Shown piece by piece: positions 2,816-19,000 of a DNA stretch of 43,825 nucleotides. Both the position numbers and the translations under genes were made by a program. The notes beneath the pieces were generated by a model. That model searched no databases, was not told the origin of the DNA, and worked only from the letters and a program-made list of their open reading frames with translations. The DNA is from Chrysochromulina tobinii (lineage: Eukaryota). Each line of letters opens with the position of its first letter. Positions within the stretch are counted from its first letter, which is position 1. The stretch covers positions 1 to 43,825 of the forward strand of contig JWZX01002079.1 in NCBI GenBank assembly GCA_001275005.1, given 5' to 3'.

Positions 2816-5800
2816 TTACGCCCGTGACTCCGTCTTGACCGCGGAGCCGGAAGTGCCCGCGGCGCTCGCGTGTGGCGGCACGTTCTCGACGGCGGCGAGG
2901 GTCTCGTCAATAGGCACTTCGTCGTCGTCGTCGAGCTCGATGGCCTCTTGCTGCTGCTTGGCTCGCTTGGCTTGGCGGCGCTGCTCGGTCACGTCCACGA
3001 GCTCCTCGTCCTCGTCGCCGTCGGCGGCGCCGTCGGCAGCGCCCTCGCCGCCGCCGCCGTCGCCACCGCCGCTGCCACCGCCGCCGCTGCCATCGCCGCC
3101 GCCGCCTCTGTCGCCGCGGCCGCCCTCGGCGCCGCCACCCTCGACGAGGCGGCGGACGGCATTCTTTGTCTCAAGCAGTGCGGCGGCCACGTGGGGCACG
3201 AGCGCGCGTCGCGCCTGCACGGTGCCCTCCTCCATCTCGTCCCACAGCGGCGAGTAGGCGGTGCGCATCGCGGCACGCGCTGCCTGCACCACGTCCGCGC
3301 GGAGCGTTTGGCCGATGCCGTCCGAGAGCGCTTGCATCTTGGACACGACGCCGTCAGTGGCCGTCTGGAACATTTTTGGAGCCGCGCGCTCCACGTGAGC
3401 CTCCAGCTTGGCCACGCGCCGACGGTGCGAGCCCGTTCCCGCCTCGGCGGTGGCGTCGTCGTAGCCCGGGGTCATCTCGGTCTGCACGGCGGGCTCCATC
3501 GAGCGCGAGAGGTCGCGCTGCTGCTTCTGCGCGGCAGTTTTGATTTCGGCCACCTTTGCATGCAAAGAGGCCAGCAGGCTGTCGGTCTGGGCGCCGCTGA
3601 GCGCGGACGAGGCGCTGTCGGGCACTCTGGCCGCCGCCAGCCGCGTAAGCAGAGCGGGGTGGAAGGCGCCAAGCGACCCTTGGAGGCTTTGCCGCAGGCC
3701 GTCGAGTGTAGAGGACAGTCCCGTCAGGAAGGAGCGCTCCCACTGCGTCGCGACCGCCTTGAAGATCGGCTCGACGAGCTGCTCGTTCATGTTGATGCGG
3801 AAGACGCCGTGACGGCGCGTGGTCGCCTTGTACGTGGCCCAATGCAATCCACCCTCGTTGACCGAAATGCCCCACTTGGCCGCGGTCTCGACGGCGGCCG
3901 TCTTGGCTGACGAGGCACCTTCGTGGAGCTTGGGCGCTACGTCCTCGGCAAAGGCCTTGCGGATGCGGGCCTCGGCCGCCTTGGTGTGCTGCTCGAGTTC
4001 GCCGCTGAGAGTCGCCGCCTGCTCATCGAAGGCAGCCTTGGCTGCGTCGCGCACGCTCTGGGGCAGTCGCGCCTCGTGGTTGAGTAGCGAGAGTAGCGAG
4101 AGGGCGAAGTCGCGCATCGCCTCGCATCGGCGGAGCGAGAGTGCCTTGCGCCGCACGAGCGCCTGCCGTTGCACGTGCCGGATGAGCGGCGGCAGCTGCG
4201 TGTCCTCAAGCTCGGCCCACACACGTGCGGGCCCATCGGCCGGCCGCAGACCGCGGAGCTTTTGGTACTCCACAGACGAAACAGTAAAGACCGGGAGCGA
4301 GTGCTTTGCAGCCAACCGGTCGGCGCCCGCGACGCCCTCGCCGGCGTCGCGCGCCATCTCGCGCAGCCCTGCCTTGAAGTCGAGAGCGAGCCGGCGCGCC
4401 GTGTACGCGTTGCGGGCACGCGCGCATTCGCGTAGTGAGGTGCCCGGCGGCAGCGCTAGCGCCCGCAGCGCCTCGGCGCGCTCGATGACGTCCGATTGCG
4501 TCGCGATGAATGCGAGCGAGCCGAACTGTCCGTCCATGAGCAGCTGCCGACGGAACTGCTCGCCGAGCAGGTCCTTGGCCGTCTTGTCGTTCACCGCGCG
4601 CACGATGTTCGACACGATCCACACGGCGTCGGCCTCCTTGAAGCGCCTCTTGACGACGGCATCACGCGCGCTGTTGTCGTCATGCACTCCGGGCGCGTCC
4701 ACGAGCACTGCGCCCGTCTTGAGGCTGTCCCAGCGGCGCGAGTACAGGCGCACCTGCTTCACGATCGGCCAGTACGAGCCGCCGTGCACGTCCTTGAGCG
4801 AGTCCATGTAGCGCTCGCACTTGCGCCGGAAGGCGACGGACTCCTTCGCGCTCTCGTGCATGGTCGTCGAGAGCGCGTGCGTGATCGCGCGCACGCCGCG
4901 CAGCTTCGCCTTCAGTGACTCGAGCGTCGGGTTGTCGTAGATCACGCGCCCACCCGGCCCCGTTCGATCGGTGCGCACGCGCGAGTGCGTGAACTCGTCG
5001 CCGTAGACGGCGTACACCTTGCACCACGAGCCGTACGCCATCGAATCTTCGGCGACTGAGAGGCTGACCTTGCCTTCGTTTGGACCGTCGTTGGGCGTCA
5101 GGTCGTCGAGCAGATCGGAGAGCTCCTTGTCCCACTCCTCCTTGGTGAGGAATTCGATCTCGGCGCGGTACTCGGGCGTGCGCACCGGGTCGGAGTCCTC
5201 ATACCGCATCTCGATGAGGCAAGCCGTGCATGCACGCATGCCATTGGTGGGCAGGATCGACGCCTCGCCCAGCATCGCGTTGAGCAGCGTCGACTTGCCA
5301 GCGCCCGTGTTGCCAACCACGACAATCGAGACGCTGGGCAGCTCTTCGCTCTGCGCGCGCAGCGCGGCGAGCTCACGCAACCGGCTCGCACGGACCTCGC
5401 TCGTCGCCCAACCCTGGTGCTCGGGTTTGGTCAGCAGCTTCTCGAGCGCGCCGCCCGCCCATCGGCAGAGGCCAAGCGCGTAGGCCTCGTCGTGCAGCGC
5501 TTGGTCGCACGTCGCAGAGTCGATGGGCGCCGCGTGCAGCACGTCGGCGCTCGGGACGTCAGCCGAGCTGGAGGCGGATGATGAGCCGGTCGACGTGGCC
5601 GCAGATGAGGATGAGCCGAGGGCTGCTGACGAAGATGAGGCAGCACCAGTGGAGGAGGAGCCAGTGACGTTCGACTTCGCCTTATCGAGCAGCAGCGTGA
5701 GCTTGCGCTTTCGCCCGAAGACTGTCACTTTGAGCGCGGATGCAGCTTCATCGGAGGACATTGAGAGCAGCGCCGCGCCGTCGATCGAGCTCTCTCGGGC

Positions 5801-5899
5801 GGCGTCGGCGGCCGTGTTGACCCATTCCTCCTCAGGGAGGTGCGCGTGCAGCCAAGAGGCGACGTCGGCGGGTTTCGAAGCGGACGTCAGCGCGTCCAT
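2816..5899 (-). CDS. SAM-domain dynamin-like GTPase, SLIP-GC/NUGGC-like (1027 aa)
   Basis: N-terminal SAM-like segment (VASWL...IDGAALLSMS...FGRKRKL). G1 GNTGAGKS, G2 region LPTNGMRACT, G3 DAPG, G4-like TQSD. NUGGC-type motifs WPIVKQV, RAVNDKTAKDLLG and LPVFTVSS. Long C-terminal helical stalk and acidic tail. Confidence 0.88.
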   Translation of the reverse strand: MDALTSASKPADVASWLHAHLPEEEWVNTAADAARESSIDGAALLSMSSDEAASALKVTVFGRKRKLTLLLDKAKSNVTGSSSTGAASSSSAALGSSSSAATSTGSSSASSSADVPSADVLHAAPIDSATCDQALHDEAYALGLCRWAGGALEKLLTKPEHQGWATSEVRASRLRELAALRAQSEELPSVSIVVVGNTGAGKSTLLNAMLGEASILPTNGMRACTACLIEMRYEDSDPVRTPEYRAEIEFLTKEEWDKELSDLLDDLTPNDGPNEGKVSLSVAEDSMAYGSWCKVYAVYGDEFTHSRVRTDRTGPGGRVIYDNPTLESLKAKLRGVRAITHALSTTMHESAKESVAFRRKCERYMDSLKDVHGGSYWPIVKQVRLYSRRWDSLKTGAVLVDAPGVHDDNSARDAVVKRRFKEADAVWIVSNIVRAVNDKTAKDLLGEQFRRQLLMDGQFGSLAFIATQSDVIERAEALRALALPPGTSLRECARARNAYTARRLALDFKAGLREMARDAGEGVAGADRLAAKHSLPVFTVSSVEYQKLRGLRPADGPARVWAELEDTQLPPLIRHVQRQALVRRKALSLRRCEAMRDFALSLLSLLNHEARLPQSVRDAAKAAFDEQAATLSGELEQHTKAAEARIRKAFAEDVAPKLHEGASSAKTAAVETAAKWGISVNEGGLHWATYKATTRRHGVFRINMNEQLVEPIFKAVATQWERSFLTGLSSTLDGLRQSLQGSLGAFHPALLTRLAAARVPDSASSALSGAQTDSLLASLHAKVAEIKTAAQKQQRDLSRSMEPAVQTEMTPGYDDATAEAGTGSHRRRVAKLEAHVERAAPKMFQTATDGVVSKMQALSDGIGQTLRADVVQAARAAMRTAYSPLWDEMEEGTVQARRALVPHVAAALLETKNAVRRLVEGGGAEGGRGDRGGGGDGSGGGGSGGGDGGGGEGAADGAADGDEDEELVDVTEQRRQAKRAKQQQEAIELDDDDEVPIDETLAAVENVPPHASAAGTSGSAVKTESRA

Positions 5900-5953
5900 G
5901 GGTCAGCGCGTCCAAGTTCGCGCCTCTTCGCAAACGCGATCGCCAAGCCCGCC
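5900..5953. promoter_or_regulatory. 54-bp divergent spacer; putative bidirectional promoter or overlapping 5' UTRs
   Basis: CAT at 5897-5899 (minus gene start) and GCCATG with ATG at 5954 (plus gene start, just before the FHA domain). Confidence 0.55.
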
Positions 5954-8900
5954 ATGCAGTCGTGCTTCCTGGAGCTCTTCAATCCATCGGCCGCGAAGCC
6001 GGGCCTGCCAGCCGTCATCGTCATCCCTGCGAACGGGGAGGTCACCATCGGCCGCGAAGGCACGGCAGTCCTGGATCCTGGTTTTGGCGCTCACGCCGAG
6101 GAGTGGAAGAAGGCGTTGCTCTCCCGCCAGCATGCTCGTTTGACCAACTTCGGCACGCCTCAGATCACGGACCTGAGCCTCAACGGCTGCGAAGTGGACG
6201 GCGCCAGCTTGGCCAAGAATGTACCCACGGAGTTGCGTGAGGGTTCCACCATCATCTTCGGGACGCGGGGTCCGCCGAAGAAGCCCGAATACGTAGAAGC
6301 CCTCGCAAAGCGCAGCTGGATTCATTCGCACTGCAAGTACGTGTTCCACATAGGGCCGCCCCCGCCTTCGCACGAAGCGCCTCCTGCGGCGGCTGCGGCT
6401 GCGAGCACACCCCTGCCTAGCACGCAGGCCTCGAACAGTCAGCGTGACGCCGAGGAAGTCGCCGAGTGTGAGAGGGACCGCCAGCCCTTCGTCTCGCCAC
6501 AGACCGCGTTTGCGGGCGCCGCTGCGACGCCCTCCGTGCCGCCGGCGACCATGCCAGCAGAAGAGGCCGAGATGCACACGGAGCAGGTGATGGACGTCGA
6601 CGCAGACGATGCTGCCGCCGACGCTGCCGCCGATGCTGCCGCCGACATGGCACTCGGCGACTCTCCCGAGGCACGCGCGCTCGCGGTGGCGTGCGGTCTG
6701 CGCGTGAGCGTGGCGGCGCACGCGTCGGCGGAGGAGCTCGAGGCCGCCGTGAACGCCGTTGGGCGCGGTCTCAAGACGCTCGAAGTCGAGCTGAGCGCGG
6801 AGAAGGCGGCCGCGGCCGAGGAGCTCAGCTCACTCAACAAGGCGCTCGAGGCGGCCTCGCAGGAGGCTGCGCGGCGCGGAACCTCGACTGGCGAGGCGCG
6901 CGCGCGATGGCGGGCGACGGTCGGCGCCAGCCTGCTGCGCGGCGCGCACGAACCCGCCGTCGAGGCCTCGCTGCGCGTCGCGAGGGACGTGCAGCAAGCG
7001 GCGTGCACGCTCCTCGCAGTGCGGAGCGACACGCTTCTCGCGCTGCATCAGGCGCGGCTCGCCCAGCTGCAGAAGCGCGTTGGTGCTCTGCTGTACGCCG
7101 ATCGGCGACTCGAGGAGCGCGCGCACGATGACTACTCGGAGCGGCTGGAAAGCGGCGTGAGCGCTTTCCAGGAGACGCTCGAGAAGCCTGACGACTTCGA
7201 CTGCGACGAGTGTCGGTACGAGCGACGCAACTATGGGTACCGCGGCCGGTTCAGCGGCCGGTACTACGACGACGACGACGACGACGACGACGACTACGAC
7301 GACGACAACGACTGCGACTGCTGGATGGCGTCCAACTCGTACGCCTGTGTCGACGAGCTCATCACAACGGCAACGACGATCCTTGGCGAGATCAAGATGG
7401 CGTTCCATGATGGTGAAGATGAGGAAGATGAGGACGAGGAGGACGAGGAGGATGAGGAGGACGAGGAGGGCGAAGAGGACGAGGAGGGCGAGGGGGGCGA
7501 GGAGGGTGAGGGCGAGGAGGAGGACGAGCGCAGCGTCGCGCGCAAGCAGGCCAAGCAAGCTCGCCGCGCGACCCGGATGGCCGACCGGCCACTCCGCGCG
7601 GCCATCCGTCTCTTCATCTTCACGGCGGGGCTCGACGAGGCGATTCGGGAGGTGAGCAGCGAGCTGGAGGATTCGTCGTCGTTGCGAACAAAGAGTCGCT
7701 TCTGCGTCGTCATCAAGGCCCTCGGTGAGCTTTGGTCGGAGGTGGTGCTCGAGCTGCCACGCGAGCCGCGAGTGTACTTACGCCCATGGTTCAGTCACAT
7801 TCCTGTAGCAGGCTCCAGCGAAGGCCGCGGCGGCGGCGGCAAAGGTGCCGGCAAGGGCGGCTTCGGCAAAGGTGCCGGCAAAGGTGCCGGCAAGGGCGGC
7901 GTCGGCAAAGGTGCCGGCAAAGGTGGCGGCAAGGGCGGCGGTAAAGGCGGCGGTACGGGTGGCGTATCTGACGACGGCGGCGCATTGGGCAAGGGCGGGC
8001 GGCTTAGCGGTGGCCTACCCGAACCGCTCTCGGATGCCCTCGCGGCATGCTCGAGCGAGATCGAGGAATGCTTGCGCGTTGCTGACCATAGTGGATCAAC
8101 CTCGCAAGCGCCTGTTGGAGCGAAGTCAATCACGAAGTTGGAGGGCCTGTTCAAGGAGCAGCTCGTGCCGCAGGTGCGCCTGCCGTGGCGGCACCCCGAG
8201 TTCCGGCGCATCCTCGACGGCGTACCGGCAGACGGTGACGCGCTCAACGAGCCGCGAGCCGCGAGCAAGGCGCGGCTGCTCAAGCTCAAGCAGCTCGCCG
8301 CTGCAGCCGACGAGAGTGAACGCGAGCAGTACTTTGTGCAGATGGGCCATCTTGCCGACCATCTCGGAATGGCCCATGAGGCTGCCGAGGCGTTCTTTGC
8401 CCGTGGCGCACCGCAGAGCGCGATGATGCGTCTCGCGAGCGCCACGGGAAGTTTTGCGAGCTGGTCCAAGAAGGGCAGCAGCCCTGTGACCTTGGCGCTG
8501 CGCACTGCGGACTTTCGATCGCTCGCACCTCTCGCACCGGCGCTGCCGGAGCTGCTCGTGAAGATGACGCCCTCGGAGACGGTGCTGCAGGATGCCGTTG
8601 TGGCCGGGCTGGGCAGTGCGAGTCTCCTCGCACCAGGCGGTGTGCGCAAGACGAGCCCCGCCGAGCTTGTTCAGATCCTTGGGCTTTGCCTGCGCTCGCC
8701 CGCGCTCCAGCTCACCCCAGCCGCCGTCGAGCAGTGTCTCATGGCGATCGCTTCAAAGCCCGAGCTCTTCCCGCGCCTGACCGATGCGCTCGAGACATGG
8801 AGGATCACGGGCTCTCGTGCGGCGTCGGATGGCAAGTGGATGGCCCCGCTCGGGCCGCATCGGTGGGCTGCGATCATCCTCGCAGCCATCCGAGCGCTCG

Positions 8901-11900
8901 CCTCGAAGCTGCATACCGGCAAGCTCACGTTCGGCGCCGACGCGAACATCCTGACGAGCAGCTACACTCTCCTCGGCCTCATAGATGCCGCCACGGACGC
9001 CTCTGGCAGCTCATCCTACCGCAACCAGCTGACGAGCCTCGTCATCGACGCCAAGCTGCTGAGCGGGAAGCTCGCGTTTGGGGCCGACGTGTACTTGCTC
9101 AGCATCAAGGAGAAGTATGGCACGCTCACTCCGGACGAGCGGTTGGCCCCGTGGTTCCGGCGGCTGCTCGGCGCGGCCATCGAGGAGGCCAACCGGAATG
9201 TGCCCGCGGCACCGGCACCGTTGCCTCTGGAGCCCGCGTCGCTGCCGCCGCTCAAGGGCTACGCCATACAAGTAGAGTTGGGCACTCAGTCATCACTGGG
9301 TTCAGTCATCGCTTGCGGTTGTTCCCCTTGCAAAGCAGCCAAGGACTTTCTCCAAAGCCAAACCGAAATTCAGAAAACCTTCAACGGCGAACGCTGTGTC
9401 CACGGCGGCCACCTGCATACTGTGCTGACCGCGGCTGCCAAACGTCCCAAGGTTCCCGCTGATGCGACCTTTAGAGTGACTGTGAGCAGTAAGGCCACTC
9501 GCGTCAACGGCAAGCTCCATGTCGTCAAGGATGTGCCCGGCGCCAAGTCTGCGGCGGAGCTCCAGGCACGCGCGAGCTCGGATCGTGCGCGCGCGCTGCA
9601 GCGCGCGGAGCAAGTGCGCGCGCGCGACGTGGCCATCGCGAGTCGTGCTGTCGAGCTCACCAAGGTGGCGGCGTTGCAGGAGCTCGAGGAGCGCCTCGTG
9701 CAGCTGCTCGAGGAGCGCACGCGGCACGCGCCCCTCGACGTGGCCGGTTTCGTCAAAATCTGCAGCGCGCTGCGCACGGGCGACGACGACCTCGCCGATG
9801 CGAGCGTGCGCGAGCTCGAGGGCGGCACCGGCGCTGGTGGTGCCACCGGCGCCGGTGGTGCCGGTGGTGCCGGTGGTGGCGGCGGCGCGGAAGCGGCGGC
9901 GGCCTCGGCGGCGGCTCCGGCGAGCGGCTGCACGGCTGCCGACGCCGACATGGACGAAGCCCTGCAGGACAGCGAGTCGATCATAAGGTGGGTCGCCTCC
10001 TTTTTCGCGCCTTCGGAGCGGTCGGCCGTCGCGCAGTCTGTCCGCGAGAATGAGGTCGATGATCTCGAGGTGCTGATGAGCATGAGCCACGCAGACTGTG
10101 CGCAGGTCCTCTTCGGGAAGCGCGCCGCGGCGACGACGGCGGAGGAGGCGCGCGATCCGGAGGAGGCGCGCGAGCGCTTCGTCCCCCTCTTCTGGGAGCG
10201 CTTCGTGGCCGTGCGTCGCCTGTGGCTCGCGCTGCAGCGACGCAAGGCGGCCGCGGAGGCGGCCACGGGCGCTGGTGGTGCGCGAGCGTGGCCAGTGGTG
10301 CCGGTAGGCGTGCCCGAGGTGGTGCAGTGGCTCGAGCAGTGCGGCGAGCATGGTGCGGACAGCATGCGTGATCCGTCGCGTCGACTCAACTTTGATGAGG
10401 CGAAGATGCATGCATTGCATTTGGACGGCGCTGTACTGAGCTCCCTCGCGCACGATGAGTGGATGGCCCTCGCGCAGTCGTCGCTTCTCTCGGCCTCGGC
10501 GTCGCTGGCAGAGGAGCTGTGGACGCGACTGCAGCCGTGCGCGGCACTCTCGAAGGCGATGCCCTCGCGCGTGGTCGACGTTCTGCCTCTGTCGTCGGCC
10601 GAGCCCCTCAAAGTGGTCGTGTGCGGTGGCACGGGCGCCGGTAAGTCGACGCTCATCAACGCGCTGCTCGGGTGCACCATCCTGCCCACCAGCTGCATGC
10701 GTGCCTGCACCGCCGCGGTCATCGAGATGGCGTGGCCCGACGCGCAATGCGCCGCCACGTACGAGGCGCGCGTCGCTCTCTGCAGCGCCGAGGAGTGGCG
10801 CGAAGCACTCATCTCGGCGTGCGCAGCCGCCGTGGCGGCCGGCCGCGGCAAGTCGCCTCAGGTGGGCACGCACCGCGGTGCTGCGGACTGGAGTCGCGTG
10901 ACCTCATTCTACGGCACTGCATCAGTTGAGATCACTGCGGAGGCGCTCGTCGAGCCCGGGGCGTCCGAAGCGCTCGTCGAGACGCTCATGGGCCGCGCAG
11001 CCGCGCGCGGCCTGGGCACACAAGTCGTGCTGCGCGCAAGCGACGAAGTCGAGTTCGCGAAGCTCGTGCAGCCGTACGTGGACTCGTCTGACGAGGCCGA
11101 GAGCGGCGCCCTCTGGCCGCTCGTCCAGAGGGTGACGCTGCTGGGGCCATTCTCGCTGCTGAGTTGCGGGTTGTGTCTGTACGACGTTCCAGGCACGCAC
11201 GACGAGAACGCGGCGCGCGAGCGCGTGATGAAGAGCGTCATCGCGTCGGCGCACACGGTGCTGCTCACCTCCAACATCCGACGCGCGTGCAACGACAAGA
11301 GCGCCAAGGATCTGCTGCCGCTCGCACTGCGCCGCCTCCTCCTCGAGCGCGGCTGGGTTGGCGAGCTCGCCTTCGTCGCGTCGCAGAGCGACGTGTTCAA
11401 CCGCTCGGAGCTCATCGACAACCTGGGGCTGGCTGAGGACGCGAGCGCCCTCGACGCGGCGCTCGCGCGCAACGCGTTCACCAAGCTGGAGCTCACGAAG
11501 GACTTCACCAAGGGCGTGCATCTCGCCGCGCGAGCCGCAGCCAGCGGGGTAGGGGGATTGGGCAGCTCTGCGCACTGGCACAGGGTGCCGTTCAAGCTCC
11601 CCGTCTTCACAGTGAGCGCCGTCGAGCACAGCAAGCTCAATAAGGTGGGCTGCAGCGCAGCCGAGGACGGTGCGCAGGTCTTCACACGCCCAGAGGAGAC
11701 GGAGCTTCCGGCACTTCTATGCTTCCTTCGGTACGCCGCGCTCGCGCATCATCGGCGCGCGGCGGAGGCGGCGGAGGCGATGCGGGCGACGACTACAGAG
11801 TGTGGCGGTGTAGGGATCCCCGTGCTTGACAACGGCTTCCCTAAGGTACCTACGGTGGGCGACAAGGTCGTCGTGCTCTCGGCCTCGCGCTCATCCGCCT

Positions 11901-13252
11901 TGTTCTGGGCCTTGGCCTCGGACTCTTCCTCAATCGTGTCCAATTACTTACTATCTTACCAAGCGTGTGTGGGCCAGGAGGGCGTGGTCCTCTCAGACAG
12001 CGTCGAGAGCGGAAGCGTCTTCCCCCCTTACAAAGTGGGCTTCCCCGACGGCAAGCATTGGTGGTTCTCAAAGGAGGAGCTCCAGCTCAAGCAGACGAGT
12101 CCGCAAGCTGATCCGCAGCTTGCGGGCAGCGGTGGCGCCGGCGCTTCTGAGCATCGAAGGCCAATTGGAGCGACGCTGCTCGAATGCATCTCGTCATCTT
12201 CGCAGGCTGGTGCCGCGAATGCGGCCGACGCAAGCGGCGGCGGGGACGAGGTTGGTAGCAGCGGCCATGGTGGCGATCAGCCTGCGCCCGCGTCCGCGCC
12301 CGCCGCGCCCGCTGCGACGAGATTCGGGACGAATAATCCGTTTGATCAGCCGTTCGCGACGGCGCAGGATGCAGCCCCCTCGGATGTTCGCGTCATGATG
12401 TCGCAATTGTACTTCGGCAAATTCGACGCCGGTGCGGCTATGGTCACATTCGACCCCAACCAAATCAGGCTAGACATCGGCCTTGACAACGGTCTCGTGT
12501 ATCTCAACGTCTCAAAGTTGAGCGAGTTCGAGGTCGACAAGGAGCTCGGTACGCTGTGCATGTGGGGCTTTTGGGGAGATGATTGCAGATCCCTGACTGG
12601 GAAGCTCAAAGACGCCTACCAACCCTTACCAGCTTCAAGATACGTTCCAGAGTCGTCCATCTTCATGCAGTACGATAAGGGACAGTTCCCTCGCGCAGGC
12701 TGGCCTTCGGAAATACTGAAGCTCAACTCGAAGTTTGGGGACGTCATCAAGTTCACCAGTGGTCACAAGGGCCGTGAGAATCGGATGTGGTACACGTCAG
12801 CACCAGGAACAGCACCACCTGCTAGCGCAGGTTCGTCAGGCTCGTCAGGCTCGTCAGGCACAGCCCCATCCGCAAGCGCATCAAGTGTCTCGCGCGCCTC
12901 ACACACGGAGCTCGTGCGCGCGGTAAACTTACGCAAGGCCGCCGGGCTGATGCAGAAGCAGCTTGCAGCCGCCGTAGGGACGTCTGATGCAATTCTCTCG
13001 TGTTGGATGCACGGGAAGCTGCAGCCAATTACTGAGGGCATCGTGGATGCCAAAGTCGCAGGCTTTCTTGCCGTCGCAGCGGGAGCTGCAGCCGCAGCGG
13101 GAGCCGTCGCAGCCGCAGCGTCCGCAGCGTCCGCAGCTCAAGAACTCAAGAACTTGAAGCGCCCAGCGCCAGCACTACCGGCTGCGCCCCGAAAGAAGGC
13201 CAAGGCAACGCCCAAGCCAGAGGATGTGGTCATCGACTTGGACTCGGACTGA
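5954..13252 (+). CDS. FHA / coiled-coil / acidic / SAM-like / SLIP-GC-type dynamin-like GTPase / SH3-like barrel / XRE-like HTH mosaic protein (~2432 aa)
   Basis: FHA motifs (TIGR...SRQHA...DLSLNG...LREGSTIIFG). D/E tracts, GKG repeats, a CxCxxC...H segment and SAM-like segments. GTPase motifs GGTGAGKS, LPTSCMRACT, DVPG and SQSD. HTH-like LRKAAGLMQKQLAAAVGTSDAILSCWMHGK. C-terminal KRP...RKKAK and VVIDLDSD. One uninterrupted ORF; in-frame introns are not excluded. Confidence 0.82.
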   Translation: MQSCFLELFNPSAAKPGLPAVIVIPANGEVTIGREGTAVLDPGFGAHAEEWKKALLSRQHARLTNFGTPQITDLSLNGCEVDGASLAKNVPTELREGSTIIFGTRGPPKKPEYVEALAKRSWIHSHCKYVFHIGPPPPSHEAPPAAAAAASTPLPSTQASNSQRDAEEVAECERDRQPFVSPQTAFAGAAATPSVPPATMPAEEAEMHTEQVMDVDADDAAADAAADAAADMALGDSPEARALAVACGLRVSVAAHASAEELEAAVNAVGRGLKTLEVELSAEKAAAAEELSSLNKALEAASQEAARRGTSTGEARARWRATVGASLLRGAHEPAVEASLRVARDVQQAACTLLAVRSDTLLALHQARLAQLQKRVGALLYADRRLEERAHDDYSERLESGVSAFQETLEKPDDFDCDECRYERRNYGYRGRFSGRYYDDDDDDDDDYDDDNDCDCWMASNSYACVDELITTATTILGEIKMAFHDGEDEEDEDEEDEEDEEDEEGEEDEEGEGGEEGEGEEEDERSVARKQAKQARRATRMADRPLRAAIRLFIFTAGLDEAIREVSSELEDSSSLRTKSRFCVVIKALGELWSEVVLELPREPRVYLRPWFSHIPVAGSSEGRGGGGKGAGKGGFGKGAGKGAGKGGVGKGAGKGGGKGGGKGGGTGGVSDDGGALGKGGRLSGGLPEPLSDALAACSSEIEECLRVADHSGSTSQAPVGAKSITKLEGLFKEQLVPQVRLPWRHPEFRRILDGVPADGDALNEPRAASKARLLKLKQLAAAADESEREQYFVQMGHLADHLGMAHEAAEAFFARGAPQSAMMRLASATGSFASWSKKGSSPVTLALRTADFRSLAPLAPALPELLVKMTPSETVLQDAVVAGLGSASLLAPGGVRKTSPAELVQILGLCLRSPALQLTPAAVEQCLMAIASKPELFPRLTDALETWRITGSRAASDGKWMAPLGPHRWAAIILAAIRALASKLHTGKLTFGADANILTSSYTLLGLIDAATDASGSSSYRNQLTSLVIDAKLLSGKLAFGADVYLLSIKEKYGTLTPDERLAPWFRRLLGAAIEEANRNVPAAPAPLPLEPASLPPLKGYAIQVELGTQSSLGSVIACGCSPCKAAKDFLQSQTEIQKTFNGERCVHGGHLHTVLTAAAKRPKVPADATFRVTVSSKATRVNGKLHVVKDVPGAKSAAELQARASSDRARALQRAEQVRARDVAIASRAVELTKVAALQELEERLVQLLEERTRHAPLDVAGFVKICSALRTGDDDLADASVRELEGGTGAGGATGAGGAGGAGGGGGAEAAAASAAAPASGCTAADADMDEALQDSESIIRWVASFFAPSERSAVAQSVRENEVDDLEVLMSMSHADCAQVLFGKRAAATTAEEARDPEEARERFVPLFWERFVAVRRLWLALQRRKAAAEAATGAGGARAWPVVPVGVPEVVQWLEQCGEHGADSMRDPSRRLNFDEAKMHALHLDGAVLSSLAHDEWMALAQSSLLSASASLAEELWTRLQPCAALSKAMPSRVVDVLPLSSAEPLKVVVCGGTGAGKSTLINALLGCTILPTSCMRACTAAVIEMAWPDAQCAATYEARVALCSAEEWREALISACAAAVAAGRGKSPQVGTHRGAADWSRVTSFYGTASVEITAEALVEPGASEALVETLMGRAAARGLGTQVVLRASDEVEFAKLVQPYVDSSDEAESGALWPLVQRVTLLGPFSLLSCGLCLYDVPGTHDENAARERVMKSVIASAHTVLLTSNIRRACNDKSAKDLLPLALRRLLLERGWVGELAFVASQSDVFNRSELIDNLGLAEDASALDAALARNAFTKLELTKDFTKGVHLAARAAASGVGGLGSSAHWHRVPFKLPVFTVSAVEHSKLNKVGCSAAEDGAQVFTRPEETELPALLCFLRYAALAHHRRAAEAAEAMRATTTECGGVGIPVLDNGFPKVPTVGDKVVVLSASRSSALFWALASDSSSIVSNYLLSYQACVGQEGVVLSDSVESGSVFPPYKVGFPDGKHWWFSKEELQLKQTSPQADPQLAGSGGAGASEHRRPIGATLLECISSSSQAGAANAADASGGGDEVGSSGHGGDQPAPASAPAAPAATRFGTNNPFDQPFATAQDAAPSDVRVMMSQLYFGKFDAGAAMVTFDPNQIRLDIGLDNGLVYLNVSKLSEFEVDKELGTLCMWGFWGDDCRSLTGKLKDAYQPLPASRYVPESSIFMQYDKGQFPRAGWPSEILKLNSKFGDVIKFTSGHKGRENRMWYTSAPGTAPPASAGSSGSSGSSGTAPSASASSVSRASHTELVRAVNLRKAAGLMQKQLAAAVGTSDAILSCWMHGKLQPITEGIVDAKVAGFLAVAAGAAAAAGAVAAAASAASAAQELKNLKRPAPALPAAPRKKAKATPKPEDVVIDLDSD
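7829..7960 (+). repeat. Coding Gly/Lys repeat (GKGA/GKGG)n
   Basis: Repeated GGCAAAGGTGCC / GGCAAGGGCGGC units. Confidence 0.85.
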
Positions 13253-15688: not shown

Positions 15689-16018
15689 TCACTGCAGACG
15701 TTCACCTGTATTCACAGCAGAGAAGCTCTGAAATACAACATGTACCCTTTCCGACGTACGGGCGAGTTTTCTCATTCCTGCTTCTCTCTTCCTGCGAAAT
15801 GGGCTGGTTCACATAAGGGAATCCCACGTTTAGAAAAGTTGTTGTCACTCAACTTCGATCGGACAACCTTATGTTGCAGAACACCCAGATAAAATCAGGG
15901 TGTGTTGTATTTAGGAGAAGTGTGAATTAACAGGTCTGCAAGTTTTGACCCCCAACTCCTGCGACAATTACTGCTTTTGCGGCCAGGCACGAAAGACGTA
16001 CTTGGCAGGTCTGCCACA

Positions 16019-19000
16019 ATGCCTCCCCAAAAGACGCCGCGAGCGCTGTCGCCTGCTAGCAAGAGCGGCGGCCTAACACCTCGCAGCGGTGCGAGCAGCG
16101 GCGGCCTAACACCTCGCGGCGGTGCGAGCTCACCACGTGGCCCGCCGCCGGCTGGTTCGGCGTGCAAATCGGCGCGTGGCTCCTCACCAGCCAAGAACGG
16201 CAGCAGCAGCAATGGCAGCAGCACGGCCCGTGGGCCGTCGCAGGCGGCCGACATTTTCGGCGGCGGCAGCAGGCAGCCCGTGCTCAAGGGCCGCACGGCT
16301 GCTGTGCCATCGCCGACCCTTGCAGACGGCAGCAGCAGCGGCGGCGGCGGCGCATCCACCGCGCGCGTGAGGATAGATCCTGTGGCACGCGAGCGTATGA
16401 TAGATCCTTCGGGAGAAGGCGGCGGAGGCGGGTCGTCGTCGTCGGACGCCGCGGCTACTGGGGCCGACCCGAGCAGCGGGCGTGGTCCCCTGTCGGGCCA
16501 GCGACCTGGGCTGCCCGAGCTCGAGCTGCCGCGGCCGATGGTCGCGGCGAAGGCGCTGGTCGTGCGTACGGGCTTCGAGCTCTCGACGCCTAAGCTGGCC
16601 GAGATGGCGGCGGGCACGCCGGTCGAACTGCTCGAGATGCGCCAGCTGCCCGACTACACGGCGCGCGCGCTCATCGCGATCCGCAACGGCCCGCGAGGCT
16701 GGGTCTCGATGTGGTCTCCCAAGGACCGAATCATGCAACTCGTCGAGCTGAGCGGCGGCGGTTTGACCTCCGGCCGGCAGGGCAGCGGGCGCGAGGGCGC
16801 CGCCAACGGCGGCGCGGCACCCAACTCGGGAGGCCGCGAGAATGCATCTCCGGGGCGGCCTGGTGCGAAGGGCGGCCTGGCTGGCGGTGCTCATGGCGGC
16901 GCATCCAAAGGGGAGCCTTCGACGGTGGCGGGGCCGGCGGCCCCGCGCATGCCAACGTACATGATCTCATCGCCCAAGCCACTGCTCGCGCGCACCGAGT
17001 TCGACTTGCAATCCGGCCGCGTGGGAGACCTCGAGCCGGGTACGCGAGTCCACGTACTCGAGTCGCGCCCTCTGCCGGACGGCGGCAGGCGCGTGAGGCT
17101 CTCTCTGGAGGTGAACCCGAGCGTCACGTACGGCTGGGTGACCGCGATCACGAAGAGCGGGCAGGAGAACCTCGCGCCGTATCTCTTCGAGGTGATGACC
17201 CCCAAGCCGCTGCTCGTGCGAAAGGAGTTTGACCTCAAGTCCGAGAAATTGGGCGAGATTGCGCCCGGGACGCTCGTCTTTGTACTCGAGGTACGCGCGG
17301 CGAGCGACGGGTCGCAGCGCACGCACTTTGCGTTCGCGACGGCGTCGGGCGGCATGAGCGCGGGCGGCTGGGTGACCTCGGTGACGAAGGATGGCGCGGA
17401 GAATCTGGCCGTCGCCGCGCGTGGCAAGGCGGCCCTGCGGTCGGCCGCCGGAGGGTCTGCCGCCGCGTCGGGCGTCGATGCGAGCAGTATACAAAAGATC
17501 ATGGACAGTGCGAAGGCGGGTGGGAAGGCCGAGATGGCGGCAGCGGCGGCGATGCTGCTCGCCAAGGTGGCGAGCAAGGGGGCGAAGAAGCCATCCGACG
17601 ATGACGCGAGCGCAGCCGGCGCGGCCGCCGCTCTCGAGGAGGGGAAGAGGCCGACGACGCCGCGGGCGGCGAAGAAGCCCTCGGAGGAGGGGAAGAAGCC
17701 CACGACGCCGCGGGCGGACGGCGGCGGCGGCACGACGCCACGGGCCAGCGGTAGCACCACACCTAAATCTGGCAAGGGCGTCGCACAGCAAGCGCAGGGG
17801 TTGAGCGGTGCCGAGAAGCAGAAGATGGAGGAGGCGGCGCTTCAGGCGAAACGAGAAGAGGTGAAGCGCGCGGTCGCGGATGCAGCCAACGCGCTCGCAA
17901 AGCTCGTCTCCAAAAAGCCTTTTGAGGAGAAGGAGTTTACGTACAAGCGCTTGGAGGCCCACCGGCCCAGTGGCAAGGCGGAGGAGATGCCCTCACGACA
18001 TACTGCCGTGCCGAGCTGCGGGCTGGTGCTCATGTTCAACTGCTACCGTGCGTCCTTCGAGCTGCTGCAGGGCGACCTGTCCTCCCTGCCCGAATCGGAG
18101 GCGCTCGACCTTCGCTCGCTCACCTCGGGGGCCTCCCTCGGCCGGTGCAAGATCGCGCCCGAAAAGGGAACCCCTTTCGTCGACCGCATCGAGTTCCCGA
18201 ATGAGTGGAAGACGGGTGACGAACACGGCCTCGAGCACAATGGGCTTCAAGGGGACGGCTGCCTGCTGGTGAAGATCGAATGGAAGGAGCCCAAAAGCGA
18301 GACCCAATTAGTGCCGCACGCCGCGCTCATCAAGTGCAATCCATGGCTCGCCTATGGGTGTGCCGAGGGAGCGCGCGTGATGATCCGAAAAGCTACTGAT
18401 ACGCAGGGAAAGTGTGCGACGGTGCAGCGCACGCTGCGCGACGATTCGGTCGTCGTGCGCGTGGATGGCACGATCGGCGAGTCGACAGTCGACCCGATGC
18501 CGCTGACGGTCGTGCGCACCTCCAACCCTCGGCACGAGCCAGGGACGCGCCTGCTCTATCTGCACGACGTGAACCTCGTCGATGCGGTCGTGGAGCACTG
18601 GCCCGAGAAGACGATCGACGTCAAGGAGGGCTCCCGCCATAAGCTGCAGGTCCAAGGCGTGGCCAAAACCGGCTGGGTCACGGCTGCCTCCTCCGCGGGT
18701 GAGGAGTTCCTCAAGGGGCCGGAGGACGGCACGCTGACGGCCGATGGCACCCCTCTGCCCGACGATGGCTCGGTCATGCAGGTCAAGGGGAGCAAGGCGC
18801 TCAAGGTGAACGCTGAATGTGGAGAGAGCGCTGAGAAAGCGGCGAAGGCGGCGCAGACGGCGCAGCTCGCGCCACGTTCCTTTGTGCACGTGCACGAGAC
18901 GAAGACACTCGAAGACGGCACCAAACGCTGCTGCATCTCGACGATCGCCGAGCAGGGCACAGTGCTCACCGCGGCTCTCAACGAGTTCAACCACGCGATG

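What the first reader, a model, noticed from the sequence alone, without database searches (positions are those of the whole stretch)
2816..13252. Head-to-head paralogous pair of SLIP-GC-type dynamin-like GTPases only 54 bp apart
Seen: the ATGs at 5899(-) and 5954(+) diverge across 54 bp. The GTPase blocks align throughout: GNTGAGKSTLLNAMLG/GGTGAGKSTLINALLG, MRACTA/MRACTA, DAPGVHDDNSAR/DVPGTHDENAAR, SNIVRAVNDKTAKDLL/SNIRRACNDKSAKDLL and LPVFTVSSVEYQKL/LPVFTVSAVEHSKL. Both are preceded by SAM-like segments. One gene keeps the long helical stalk; the other lacks it and carries FHA, barrel and HTH domains instead. Established: bacterial dynamin-like proteins often act as adjacent heteromeric pairs, some in phage defence, and plant paired NLRs are head-to-head sensor/executor genes. 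Inference: this is a co-regulated sensor/executor GTPase pair that may hetero-oligomerise via SAM or G domains.
Basis: partly seen in the sequence, partly recalled or inferred. Interest (0 to 1): 0.82.

Follow-up and report, generated by a model that had tools for sequence, protein, structure and literature searches.

The report
Conserved head-to-head dynamin-like GTPase pair
Two related dynamin-like GTPase genes of the poorly understood SLIP-GC family start 54 bases apart on opposite strands in a haptophyte alga, a comparable pairing recurs in at least two other algal lineages, and the two proteins are predicted to pair through their GTPase domains and likely work together on chromatin, which would give a testable handle on what this family does.

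Summary
ORF A (2816-5899, minus, 1027 aa) and ORF B (5954-13252, plus, 2432 aa) start 54 bp apart. Their GTPase domains are 37% identical over 431 residues (E 8e-54).

- **A** is a full SLIP-GC/NUGGC-type protein: SAM-like domain, G domain and DUF7605 stalk. Its model is closest to bacterial dynamin-like protein BDLP.
- **B** keeps every GTPase motif but lacks the stalk. It adds an FHA domain, two SAM-like segments, an HTH_3-like segment and a domain found elsewhere beside HMG-box or PWWP. The 'barrel' could not be verified.

New here:
- B-type domains form one old clade.
- An A-type gene faces a B-type gene in an unrelated metagenome lineage, and a B-type N-terminus in an Aureococcus-like contig.
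- Emiliania A-like and B-like models lie on different scaffolds.
- RNA contigs of five runs cover both genes; none listed crosses the gap.
- A G-G heterodimer model scored 0.73 against 0.00 for the best control.
- Bacterial relatives are single-copy, some fused to HEPN or next to SNF2 helicases.

Best reading (0.45): a co-regulated, heteromeric, likely nuclear GTPase pair. The NLR-like immune analogy is untested.

The scan noted a SLIP-GC-like chromatin-reader fusion in another genome (e1-7215446).

The parts
2816..5899 (-). Gene A: SLIP-GC/NUGGC-type dynamin-like GTPase, 1027 aa, one open frame
   Evidence: There were 106 homologues, among them fungal and vertebrate proteins that their sources name 'Nuclear GTPase SLIP-GC'.
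5654..5872 (-). A residues 10-82: SAM-like five-helix domain
   Evidence: The Pfam hit on A itself is sub-threshold.
4256..5332 (-). A residues 190-548: G domain with G1 GNTGAGKS, G2 Thr225, G3 DAPG and G4 TQSD
3131..4195 (-). A residues 569-923: helical stalk; Pfam DUF7605 covers 667-839
   Evidence: BDLP 2j69_A: E 3.1e-13, TM-score 0.63 on the target
2819..3124 (-). A residues 926-1027: disordered tail. It holds an acidic run followed by LVDVT, a basic patch, IELDD and a terminal VKTE. I read these as SUMO-interaction-like, NLS-like and SUMO-site-like by recalled consensus.
   Evidence: This is motif level only.
5900..5953 (.). 54-bp gap between the two start codons; putative bidirectional promoter
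   Evidence: No listed RNA contig of X1, X2, X3, X4 or X12 bridges 5917-5932. DNA contigs L001, L002 and L007 run through.
5954..13252 (+). Gene B: stalk-less paralogous GTPase with accessory domains, 2432 aa, one open frame
6080..6262 (+). B residues 43-103: FHA domain
   Evidence: 27.9 bits, cut-off 20.7
8951..9853 (+). B residues about 1000-1300: module conserved with orthologues P0109 and P0110 (includes a Cys/His cluster); no family hit
9959..10543 (+). B residues 1336-1530: two tandem SAM-like segments before the G domain
10568..11725 (+). B residues 1539-1924: G domain with G1 GGTGAGKS, G2 Thr1586, G3 DVPG and G4 SQSD; all family-invariant residues kept
11771..12133 (+). Absent from orthologue P0109, present in P0140. 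Fold unverified.
12278..12886 (+). B residues about 2109-2311: unnamed domain. Its homologues elsewhere sit beside an HMG box (P0122) or PWWP (P0124). Residues 2137-2279 are absent from the close relative P0140.
12863..13081 (+). B residues about 2304-2376: HTH_3 (Cro/C1-type)-like segment
13151..13249 (+). B residues 2400-2432: basic patch, then a terminal hydrophobic-Asp-Leu core with acidic/Ser residues. A like ending is seen in all 6 B-type proteins.

Best explanation
Gene A and gene B are anciently duplicated, catalytically intact dynamin-like GTPases of the SLIP-GC/BDLP class that appear to be transcribed outward from a 54-bp gap, are predicted to heterodimerise through their G domains, and likely act together in the nucleus on chromatin.

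Shown by the calls:
- A and B are paralogues, and all GTPase motifs are intact in both.
- B lacks the stalk.
- B-type G domains form one clade.
- The head-to-head linkage recurs in other lineages.
- Both genes are present in RNA libraries.

Predicted:
- The G-G heterodimer forms across the nucleotide pockets. The family-invariant arginine of each partner (A Arg434, B Arg1777) lies against the other's P-loop.

Inferred:
- A supplies the BDLP-like stalk and a SAM module for assembly.
- B supplies targeting through FHA (phospho-threonine reading), an HTH_3-like segment and a domain found elsewhere with HMG-box or PWWP.
- Both carry C-terminal motifs that resemble nuclear-import and SUMO-interaction signals, so they would be brought together at nuclear sites.
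- GTP-dependent dimerisation would then drive assembly or remodelling at damaged or foreign DNA.

Whether the biological role is genome maintenance (as reported for vertebrate SLIP-GC) or defence is left open.
For: Paralogy and intact motifs.
- A against B: 37% identity over 431 residues, E 8e-54.
- G1, G2, G3 and the G4 aspartate are conserved in 52-53 of 53 aligned family members, including all 6 B-type rows.

One old duplication.
- In a tree of 45 G domains, the 6 B-type rows form one branch (SH-aLRT 99), next to a branch of 19 of the 22 rows I labelled A-type (93).
- Together with the other three A-labelled rows, these two branches are set apart from fungi, green algae and animals (98).

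Linkage outside the window's species.
- L011/L012: an A-type ORF 9209..12592(+) with Dynamin_N and DUF7605 faces a 1496-aa ORF 4612..9102(-) with ankyrin repeats and Dynamin_N but no DUF7605.
- L010/L009 (Aureococcus-like): the frame diverging from the A-type gene is 47% identical over 165 residues (E 2e-25) to the N-terminus of the Aureococcus B-type protein P0111.
- L004 (A 64% identical): a diverging ORF begins like B, with 13 of 24 residues identical, but E is only 0.41.
- Only the A-B linkage is conserved. L011's other neighbours are housekeeping genes.

Expression.
- 14 of 21 listed runs are RNA libraries holding 0.49-0.76 of the sampled words.
- In the five RNA runs laid, contigs cover both genes.
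- They end at 5880, 5912, 5908 and 5916 on the A side and begin at 5993, 5947, 5942, 5941 and 5933 on the B side. No listed contig crosses the gap.

Structure.
- The A model has pLDDT 84.6 and pTM 0.74.
- Its best solved matches are BDLP 2j69_A (E 3.1e-13), SynDLP, the Campylobacter DLP1/DLP2 pair, IniA, MxB and mitofusins.

Complex.
- A 165-575 with B 1510-1950, two GTP and two Mg scored 0.73 (runs 0.71, 0.73, 0.73). The best of 3 controls scored 0.00.
- The pass mark was reached by 51 of 78 solved complexes and 2 of 108 mismatched pairs.
- The runs agree in at least 70% of contacts, and the partner's pLDDT is at least 71.
- The interface is the P-loop, switch I, the invariant Arg and the G4 region of both chains.

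Chromatin and nuclear hints.
- FHA in B.
- HTH_3-type relatives of B's HTH segment.
- The domain at B 2109-2311 is shared with an HMG-box protein and a PWWP protein.
- HMG box in the Aureococcus B-type proteins.
- All 6 of 6 B-type tails end in a hydrophobic-Asp-Leu core flanked by acidic residues.
- Of 15 A-type tails, 10 have [LVI]xD[VI]T after an acidic run and 11 have a psi-K-x-E within the last 30 residues.
- Bacterial relatives sit next to an SNF2 helicase and/or NOV_C in 3 of 5 loci scanned.
Against: - No experiment supports binding, localisation or co-regulation.
- The complex pass may come from likeness to solved dynamin-family G-G dimers. It cannot tell A-B from A-A or B-B, which were not run. 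The job carried small molecules, unlike the calibration, and my alignments were not used.
- Contigs cannot show transcript ends or strands. The tables were cut (135 and 12 pieces not shown), so the promoter gap is only a weak hint.
- Linkage is not universal as far as seen. In Emiliania huxleyi the A-like model P0010 is recorded on a 351,143-base scaffold and the B-like model P0141 on a 1,292,475-base scaffold.
- Upstream of two further algal A-type genes (L017 with 1.3 kb, L024 with 2.7 kb) nothing B-like was recognised.
- In L022/L013 the diverging neighbour is an FHA + SET gene with no detectable similarity to B and no G domain within 4.3 kb.
- The SUMO and NLS motifs are short, read by eye against recalled consensus patterns.
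- The SAM and HTH hits on the window's own proteins are below Pfam thresholds.
- B's C-terminal folds are unmodelled.
- The continuity of B as one transcript across the acidic repeats (7254-7532) is not shown by any contig.
- BDLP-class proteins are membrane remodellers, and a membrane role was not excluded.
Confidence: 0.45

Rival explanations
1. The pair is a nuclear or cytoplasmic defence module against viruses or mobile DNA, in the sense of the first reader's sensor/executor idea. B's fast-changing accessory domains would sense an invader or its effects. A would execute, as Mx-type dynamin-like GTPases do (the Mx comparison is recalled).
For: - Bacterial-type relatives: 4 of 7 scanned (P0149, P0150, P0151 and P0154 from Egicoccus) carry an N-terminal Swt1-like HEPN domain (53-61 bits, cut-off 27.5) in front of Dynamin_N + DUF7605.
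- HEPN domains of the Abi2/Swt1 family are described as defence RNases (passages of PMC3710099).
- An SNF2 helicase with NOV_C, or NOV_C alone, lies next to the gene in 3 of 5 bacterial loci.
- B's modules differ even between close relatives. Residues 2137-2279 are missing in P0140, which is 89% identical over residues 1485-2136. The 'barrel' is missing in P0109. Ankyrin, HMG or HTH modules appear in different lineages.
- The window also holds NACHT and LRR-Roc-COR genes.
- MxB is among the fold matches (rank 12).
Against: - The pair has no nuclease or other effector domain.
- PADLOC gives only P-loop-level matches to LeoBC and LeoA.
- The NACHT/ROCO neighbours are not conserved beside the pair in L011.
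- In a study of Emiliania (Gephyrocapsa) virus resistance, the main text does not mention dynamin. The differential-expression table held as text has no row for the Emiliania A-type accession. That file may be incomplete.
- This rival overlaps with the best explanation, since the molecular mechanism could be the same.
Confidence: 0.25
2. The two genes are merely a retained inverted duplicate sharing a compact promoter. The proteins act separately, each as a homo-oligomer, and B has taken on a new, unrelated function.
For: - Dynamin-family G domains generally dimerise with themselves (PMC5084822, abstract seen in the listing), so the predicted A-B interface is expected for any two members (caveats).
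- A-type proteins exist alone in fungi, green algae and animals.
- Other divergent ORF pairs in this window are also close, about 165-600 bp by ORF coordinates.
- The Emiliania models lie on different scaffolds.
Against: Linkage survives divergence to 44% (A) and about 38% (B G domain) identity in L011/L012, and is seen in an Aureococcus-like contig, while all other neighbours differ.
Confidence: 0.2
3. The pair is a membrane-remodelling or tethering heteromer, like BDLP, the Campylobacter DLP1/DLP2 pair or the mitofusins, for example at the nuclear envelope or an organelle.
For: - The best fold matches are membrane-active proteins: BDLP, SynDLP, DLP1/DLP2, IniA and mitofusins.
Against: - No transmembrane or clearly hydrophobic paddle segment was seen by eye in A or B; this was not formally tested.
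- B's accessory domains are of the nucleic-acid or chromatin type.
- B lacks the stalk on which the membrane paddle sits.
- The nearest bacterial relatives of this subfamily are single-copy in 12 of 12 loci.
Confidence: 0.1

Closest known systems
Vertebrate NUGGC / SLIP-GC (nuclear GTPase, germinal-centre associated)
   Same: - It has the Dynamin_N + DUF7605 architecture.
- It shares direct sequence homology with A: shark and fish 'nuclear GTPase SLIP-GC-like' proteins at E 8.8e-35 to 1.9e-16 and 22-25% identity.
- It is reported to be nuclear and linked to genome stability (passage of PMC12107551). The original papers were not held.
   Different: - The algal A adds a SAM-like N-terminal domain and an acidic/SUMO-motif-like tail.
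- It is linked head-to-head to a stalk-less paralogue.
- No B-type member was seen outside the algal clade in my searches.
BDLP of Nostoc punctiforme (2j69/2j68) and the Campylobacter jejuni DLP1/DLP2 pair (5owv/5oxf)
   Same: - The whole-length fold of A matches: G domain plus helical neck and trunk.
- They supply the idea of a heterotypic pair encoded by neighbouring genes (PMC6104087 abstract).
   Different: - Those are membrane proteins, co-oriented in operons, and both partners bear stalks.
- Here the genes diverge from a shared gap and one partner has lost the stalk and gained reader or DNA-binding modules.
- The duplication happened inside an algal clade.
- Bacterial members of this subfamily are unpaired.
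Bacterial HEPN_Swt1-Dynamin_N-DUF7605 proteins (e.g. Egicoccus 'dynamin family protein' P0154) and relatives next to SNF2/NOV_C helicases
   Same: - The G domain + DUF7605 core is the same, at 26-34% identity to B's G region.
- An accessory domain sits N-terminal of the G domain.
- They have DNA-related neighbours.
   Different: - In A the N-terminal position is taken by a SAM-like domain, and no nuclease domain is present.
- These relatives are prokaryotic and single-copy.
Plant paired NLRs (head-to-head sensor/helper genes)
   Same: - Both show a head-to-head arrangement.
- One partner carries variable 'integrated' domains.
- This comparison is recalled and was not tested here.
   Different: - The NTPase class differs: dynamin-like TRAFAC GTPase rather than STAND NB-ARC.
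- There are no LRRs and no evidence of immune function.

Membership tests
SLIP-GC/NUGGC family (Pfam Dynamin_N + DUF7605) | Dynamin_N G domain above the Pfam gathering score | tested here: met
   A scores 56.2 bits and B 50.0 bits; the cut-off is 27.
SLIP-GC/NUGGC family (Pfam Dynamin_N + DUF7605) | DUF7605 helical region after the G domain | tested here: met
   Gene A is met: 51.1 bits at residues 667-839, cut-off 27.
SLIP-GC/NUGGC family (Pfam Dynamin_N + DUF7605) | DUF7605 helical region after the G domain | tested here: not met
   Gene B is not met: no hit at E <= 0.1. B is therefore a derived paralogue of the family's G domain, not a full member.
SLIP-GC/NUGGC family (Pfam Dynamin_N + DUF7605) | Homology to proteins that sources name 'Nuclear GTPase SLIP-GC' | tested here: met
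   One search returned fungal and vertebrate proteins so named among 106 hits. In the tree, A and B group with them.
SLIP-GC/NUGGC family (Pfam Dynamin_N + DUF7605) | Nuclear, speckled localisation | not testable with these tools
   There are only motif-level hints: basic patches and SUMO-interaction-like tails.
Dynamin superfamily, BDLP/mitofusin class | G1-G4 motifs intact | tested here: met
   GxTGAGKS is kept in 52 of 52 filled rows, switch-I Thr in 53 of 53, DxPG in 52-53 of 53 and the G4 Asp in 52 of 52. This includes A and all 6 B-type rows.
Dynamin superfamily, BDLP/mitofusin class | Helical neck/trunk with a BDLP-like fold | tested here: met
   This holds for A: 2j69_A at E 3.1e-13 and TM-score 0.63 on the target. 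For B only one helix follows the G domain in a moderate-confidence model, and the N-terminal 1300 residues were not modelled.
Dynamin superfamily, BDLP/mitofusin class | Nucleotide-dependent G-G dimerisation | tested here: inconclusive
   This is prediction only: 0.73 against 0.00 for the best control. The pass may reflect likeness to solved dimers.
Dynamin superfamily, BDLP/mitofusin class | Membrane-binding paddle or transmembrane segment | not tested
   None was noticed by eye; no predictor was run.
Paired bacterial DLPs (operon pairs such as DLP1/DLP2) | Two DLP genes adjacent and co-transcribed | tested here: not met
   The genes are adjacent but divergent, not co-oriented. Bacterial relatives of this subfamily have no second copy within 7 kb in 12 of 12 loci.
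Paired NLRs (sensor/helper) | STAND (NB-ARC/NACHT) NTPase core | tested here: not met
   Neither A nor B has such a hit. The NACHT gene at 15977-20029 is a separate gene.
SAM domain | Pfam SAM model above threshold, or a five-helix SAM fold | tested here: inconclusive
   - A scores 16.8 bits against a cut-off of 23. B scores SAM_Ste50p 14.5 bits against 21.
- Homologues P0014 and P0083 pass.
- The model shows a five-helix domain.
- hhalign links are.
- No fold search of the isolated domain was possible.
FHA domain | Pfam FHA above threshold | tested here: met
   B residues 43-103 score 27.9 bits; the cut-off is 20.7.
HTH_3 (Cro/C1-type helix-turn-helix) | Pfam HTH_3/HTH_31 above threshold | tested here: inconclusive
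   - B scores HTH_31 16.5 bits against a cut-off of 27.
- The close relative P0140 scores HTH_3 21.8 bits against 23.
- Five phmmer hits that do carry HTH_3 have a best E of 6.2e-10.

The most novel reading that the evidence does not exclude
An ancient two-gene module of algae turns a BDLP-type membrane mechano-enzyme into a chromatin machine. A stalk-bearing SLIP-GC GTPase and a stalk-less paralogue loaded with phospho-, DNA- and chromatin-reading modules form a GTP-driven heterodimer. SAM and SUMO-type contacts concentrate it at damaged or foreign DNA. This would be descended from bacterial dynamin-like proteins that work with HEPN nucleases and SNF2 helicases, and would explain what vertebrate NUGGC does.
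Probability: 0.2. Interest if true: 0.8.

Novelty: new variant of a known kind. Interest (0 to 1): 0.62.

Why it matters
SLIP-GC/NUGGC is a widespread eukaryotic GTPase family with almost no mechanistic literature. My searches of the held library found no paper treating it in algae or as a dynamin-like pair.

A conserved two-gene unit with a clear division of domains gives concrete experiments: G-domain heterodimer, trans-arginine mutants, localisation, and DNA-damage against virus induction. It links three things that have been discussed apart:
- bacterial dynamin-like proteins;
- conflict-system fusions with HEPN and SNF2;
- a vertebrate genome-stability factor.

If the pair acts on chromatin, it would be a departure from the membrane-remodelling role that defines the dynamin superfamily. 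The organisms concerned (haptophytes, and pelagophytes such as Aureococcus) are bloom formers that I recall as hosts of giant viruses, so a defence role would also matter ecologically.

Tried and rejected
- **Own genome:** none is held for this window, so paralogue counts and synteny in the source genome could not be made.
- **PDB sequence search of A:** mostly low-complexity matches to the Gly/acidic tail. BDLP appeared only at E 0.027.
- **ESM Atlas on B's C-terminal 493 residues:** no usable hit. An earlier try failed on length.
- **AlphaFold2 of B 1301-2432 with 6 sequences:** pLDDT was under 50 from about residue 1940 on, so there is no fold information for the 'barrel', the unnamed domain or the HTH.
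- **L010:1-1725(-):** this was the wrong reading frame, an Arg-rich artefact. The right frame is L010:3-1892(-). Pfam finds no FHA in it, so 'FHA-like' there is my reading of the alignment only.
- **L022 upstream FHA+SET ORF against B:** no significant similarity.
- **Small HMM of FHA-like N-termini:** it found only its own training sequences.
- **SAP-like motifs in P0109 and P0110:** seen by eye only; Pfam gave no SAP hit at E <= 0.01.
- **PADLOC:** LeoBC and LeoA matches cover only the P-loop region, so this is not membership of the Eleos system.
- **RNA oddities:**
  - The back-joint 12142->7824 and the loose ends at 6850, 7061 and 7816 are 21-letter matches of other, more abundant contigs (table 8).
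  - The joint 50->3736 has a side of only 21 letters in one contig.
  - I therefore discount all of these as introns.
  - Stretches without contig cover (for example around 6916-7016 and 7421-7521) prove nothing.
- **X15 (kind unknown):** it did not serve as a DNA control. Its contig diverges from the window right after 5899.
- **Emiliania virus-resistance paper:** no dynamin in the main text. The six 'dynamin' rows of the supplement are other genes.
- **Papers not held:** Richter 2009 and 2012.
- **Not run, because the caps were reached:** A-A and B-B homodimers, SAM-SAM complexes, and a model of B residues 1-1300.


Full report
**What is there**

The window is GC-rich (58-70%) and holds long intronless ORFs. 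ORF A runs 2816..5899 on the minus strand (1027 aa, P0001). ORF B is open from 5840, has its first in-frame ATG at 5954 and stops at 13252 (2432 aa, P0002). The two ATGs are separated by the 54 bases 5900-5953.

BLASTP of A against B aligns A 172-573 with B 1524-1922 at 160 of 431 identities (37%), E 8e-54.

Pfam gives Dynamin_N (56.2 bits) and DUF7605 (51.1 bits) for A. For B it gives FHA (27.9 bits, residues 43-103) and Dynamin_N (50.0 bits), with no DUF7605 at E <= 0.1.

No genome is held for the window. The best named relatives of A are from Emiliania, a pelagophyte and Aureococcus.

**Family of A**

A has 106 homologues at E <= 0.001 in the size range searched. They include haptophyte- and pelagophyte-type proteins (38-68% identity), many fungal proteins that sources name 'Nuclear GTPase SLIP-GC', green-algal proteins, and shark and fish 'nuclear GTPase SLIP-GC-like' proteins (22-25% identity, E 8.8e-35 to 1.9e-16).

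A model built on 55 sequences has pLDDT 84.6 and pTM 0.74. Its parts are:
- a five-helix domain at 10-82;
- a disordered Ser/Ala linker;
- two pre-G helices;
- the G domain at 190-548;
- an all-helical stalk at 569-923;
- a disordered tail.

Foldseek against the PDB puts BDLP first (2j69_A, E 3.1e-13, TM-score 0.63 on the target). SynDLP, the Campylobacter DLP1/DLP2 pair, IniA, MxB, Drp1 and mitofusins follow. SLIP-GC-type proteins are thus BDLP/mitofusin-class dynamin-like proteins.

**SAM-like segments**

- On A's first 80 residues Pfam SAM_1 scores 16.8 bits (E 0.009), below the cut-off. Two further SAM families come next.
- Family members P0014 and P0083 pass SAM_2 and SAM_1.
- In scripts, a profile of A-type N-termini matches the two segments before B's G domain (hhalign P 5.6e-9 and 3.7e-7).
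- Against one unrelated SAM domain from the window (the protein of 33663-34859) alone, P is 5.6e-4 for A and 0.063 and 0.016 for the B segments. Reversed controls give 0.07-0.58.

I accept 'SAM-like' for A. For B I accept it by homology to A, in two tandem copies.

**Gene B**

B's orthologues P0109 (1735 aa) and P0110 (1813 aa) align from about B 1000 to 1939 at 53% identity in the case of P0109. The aligned region covers a Cys/His-containing middle module, both SAM-like segments and the G domain. P0109 lacks the 1940-2060 'barrel'.

All family-invariant residues and the G1-G4 motifs are kept in B and in every B-type row, 52-53 of 53 rows per position. In the algal clade G4 reads [TS]-Q-S-D instead of the T-K-x-D of most fungal members. 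B is therefore predicted to be an active GTPase.

The model of B 1301-2432 is usable only for the SAM-SAM-G part (block pLDDT about 70-89). After the G domain it shows one helix and then nothing confident.

A phmmer search of B's last 493 residues against 1.84 billion representatives gave 22 hits:
- Five hits carry Pfam HTH_3, some in long arrays. They match B about 2304-2376 (best E 6.2e-10).
- A set of hits (E 1.1e-26 to 6.6e-4) matches B about 2109-2311. One of them carries an HMG box and one a PWWP domain.
- The 'barrel' matched only repeats in bacterial-type surface proteins, which I do not trust.

A close relative, P0140, is 89% identical over 1485-2136. It keeps the barrel and the HTH but lacks 2137-2279. 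Aureococcus B-type proteins carry an HMG box instead. The L011 B-type gene carries ankyrin repeats. B thus has a conserved core (middle module, two SAM-like segments, G domain, short tail) and rapidly changing accessory modules, mostly of DNA or chromatin type.

**Tails**

- All 6 B-type proteins end in a hydrophobic-Asp-Leu core flanked by acidic or Ser residues. In the three haptophyte-type ones a Lys/Ala-rich basic patch comes before it.
- Of 15 A-type tails printed, 10 have an acidic run followed by [LVI]xD[VI]T, mostly followed by a basic patch and a second I-[DE]-L-acidic element. Eleven have psi-K-x-E within the last 30 residues. Some Sordariales members share the last feature.
- By recalled consensus these resemble SUMO-interaction motifs, nuclear-import signals and SUMO acceptor sites. 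This is motif-level inference only.

**Is the pair conserved?**

One scan of metagenome contigs with an alignment of 11 A-type proteins gave 50 loci.

Window's own species:
- Five loci are 99-100% identical. L001, L002 and L007 reach far enough upstream and all three hold both genes. L003 holds B's first 25 codons.

Other algal A-type loci with at least 250 bases upstream collapse to six organisms, because L009 = L010, L011 = L012 and L013 = L022:
1. L011/L012. A' is 44% identical to A (ORF 9209..12592, Dynamin_N + DUF7605). It faces a 1496-aa minus-strand ORF (4612..9102) with ankyrin repeats and a B-type G domain and no DUF7605. The gap is 106 bases if the GTG at 9102 is the start, and about 650 if the first ATG is.
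2. L010/L009. The A' G domain is identical to P0019 and P0022 and near-identical to an Aureococcus protein. The diverging frame is 47% identical over 165 residues (E 2e-25) to the N-terminus of the Aureococcus B-type protein P0111. The contig ends before any G domain.
3. L004. A' is 64% identical. A diverging ORF starts 156 bases from A' and begins like B, but with only 13 of 24 identities (E 0.41).
4. L022/L013. The diverging neighbour is an FHA + SET gene with no detectable similarity to B and no G domain in 4.3 kb.
5. L017 (1.3 kb upstream): nothing recognised.
6. L024 (2.7 kb upstream): nothing recognised.

More distant loci (30-40% identity) show no second G domain in the flank held.

In the third protein search a B-type fragment of Emiliania huxleyi appeared (P0141, 63% identity). 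Its scaffold is 1,292,475 bases, whereas the Emiliania A-like model P0010 is on one of 351,143 bases. That pair of models is therefore not adjacent.

In L011 the other neighbours are housekeeping genes: mitofilin, PWWP, deacetylase, F-box, exonuclease and eIF6. The NACHT and LRR-Roc-COR genes of the window are thus not part of a conserved context.

**Age of the duplication**

In an IQ-TREE (quick mode) of 45 G domains:
- The six B-type rows form one branch (SH-aLRT 99).
- That branch lies beside a branch holding 19 of the 22 rows I labelled A-type (93).
- These two branches, together with the remaining three A-labelled rows (P0030, P0031 and the long-branched P0083), are set apart from fungi plus green algae and from animals (98).
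- Both the A and the B branch hold haptophyte-type and Aureococcus sequences.

So there was one duplication before those lineages separated, or the pair moved between them as a unit. The tree is midpoint-rooted and long branches exist (P0083, fish sequences). The order of events is not proven.

**Expression**

- Of 21 runs listed, 14 are RNA libraries that hold 0.49-0.76 of the sampled words of 2816-12800.
- All runs are kept as contigs, which cannot show ends, strands or levels.
- In the five RNA runs laid (X1, X2, X3, X12; X1, X4, X12), contigs cover both genes without internal joints. The exceptions are short-sided ones that I discount.
- On the A side contigs end at 5880, 5912, 5908 and 5916. 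On the B side they begin at 5993, 5947, 5942, 5941 and 5933.
- No listed piece bridges 5917-5932, whereas three DNA contigs do.
- This fits two outward transcripts with very short leaders and the ATGs at 5899 and 5954. It is a weak hint only, and the tables were cut.
- Continuity of B across its acidic repeats (7254-7532) is not shown.

**Do they bind?**

One complex job was run: A 165-575, B 1510-1950, two GTP and two Mg.
- It scored 0.73 (runs 0.71, 0.73, 0.73) against 0.00 for the best of three controls.
- The pass mark was reached by 51 of 78 solved complexes and 2 of 108 mismatched pairs.
- The runs agree in at least 70% of contacts, and the partner's pLDDT is at least 71.
- The interface is the canonical dynamin-type face across the nucleotide pockets: P-loop, switch I, the G4 region and the family-invariant arginine. 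A 432-434 contacts B's P-loop, and B 1775-1777 contacts A's P-loop.
- G-G dimers of this superfamily are solved, so the pass may reflect likeness. It cannot distinguish A-B from A-A or B-B, which were not run.
- The job also differs from the calibration in carrying ligands.

**Bacterial relatives**

- The third protein search also returned prokaryote-type proteins with Dynamin_N + DUF7605. Four of seven scanned have an N-terminal Swt1-like HEPN domain, one of them from Egicoccus.
- A scan of prokaryote genomes gave 12 loci with full-length relatives, from Acidimicrobiia, Acidobacteriota, Pirellulaceae and Sericytochromatia. None of the 12 has a second copy within 7 kb.
- In 3 of 5 loci scanned, the next gene is an SNF2 helicase (with NOV_C in L053) or a NOV_C fragment.
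- HEPN domains of this family and SNF2-DUF3883 helicases are discussed as defence components in PMC3710099 (passages).
- PADLOC matches to LeoBC and LeoA are confined to the P-loop.

The subfamily therefore has a nucleic-acid or conflict flavour already in bacteria. The algal pairing is not inherited from a bacterial operon pair.

**Interpretation**

The best-supported reading is a co-regulated pair whose products likely meet through their G domains. A would contribute the stalk and a SAM module. B would contribute targeting through FHA and DNA or chromatin modules. Both likely act in the nucleus.

A defence role remains a live rival because of the bacterial fusions and B's modular turnover. 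Independent action of two paralogues that merely share a promoter, and a membrane role, are not excluded.

**Literature**

- Searches for SLIP-GC, NUGGC and DUF7605 (90 papers, mostly expression lists), for SLIP-GC with dynamin (1 paper, unrelated) and for SLIP-GC with alga (3 papers, on fish) found nothing on algal or paired SLIP-GC genes. A broader search listed none with the term.
- The original SLIP-GC papers were not held. I rely on a passage of PMC12107551.
I did not test it.

Noticed in passing
window 15977-20029 (+) and 21058-29004 (+): Two giant intronless ORFs lie next to the pair. One is a 1350-aa protein with a weak NACHT hit and an SH3_3 hit. The other is a 2648-aa LRR-Roc-COR (ROCO) protein. 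A SAM-domain protein follows at 33663-34859 and a lysyl-oxidase-like gene lies at 31929-33302. This context is not conserved next to the pair in L011.
   Followed up: partly
L022:1053-4112 (-) and L013 (99.75% identical copy): In another alga the gene diverging from the A-type gene encodes an N-terminal FHA domain followed by a SET domain. Its first residues resemble the starts of B in the window and of the diverging ORF in L004 (alignment). Whether it is a B orthologue with a SET insertion is open.
   Followed up: partly
bacterial proteins P0149, P0150, P0151, P0154; loci L051-L053: Prokaryotic Dynamin_N + DUF7605 proteins are fused to a Swt1-like HEPN domain. Relatives lie next to SNF2 helicases carrying NOV_C. 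P0157 has a C-terminal part that matches the end of PglZ in PADLOC (E 2.4e-14). This may be an undescribed dynamin-centred conflict system.
   Followed up: partly
window 12365-12793 (B residues 2137-2279): A 143-residue block inside the unnamed C-terminal domain is absent from P0140, which is 89% identical over B residues 1485-2136. In another collection the last 281 residues are called as a separate protein (P0118). This could be domain gain or loss, or a difference in gene calling.
   Followed up: no
window 5899-5980, run X15: A contig of run X15 (kind unknown, several base differences from the window) follows the window up to 5899 and then continues with unlike letters. The next contig starts at 5979. 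The intergenic gap may differ between strains.
   Followed up: no
tails of fungal proteins P0033, P0034, P0035, P0037, P0040, P0042: Several Sordariales 'Nuclear GTPase SLIP-GC' proteins also carry a psi-K-x-E motif within their last 30 residues. A terminal SUMO-site-like motif may be a wider family trait.
   Followed up: no
window 7254-7324, 7407-7532, 2998-3114: These are coding low-complexity repeats: acidic runs and Gly/Lys repeats in B, and Gly-rich runs in A's tail. They break RNA contigs and attract 21-letter matches from unrelated abundant transcripts.
   Followed up: yes
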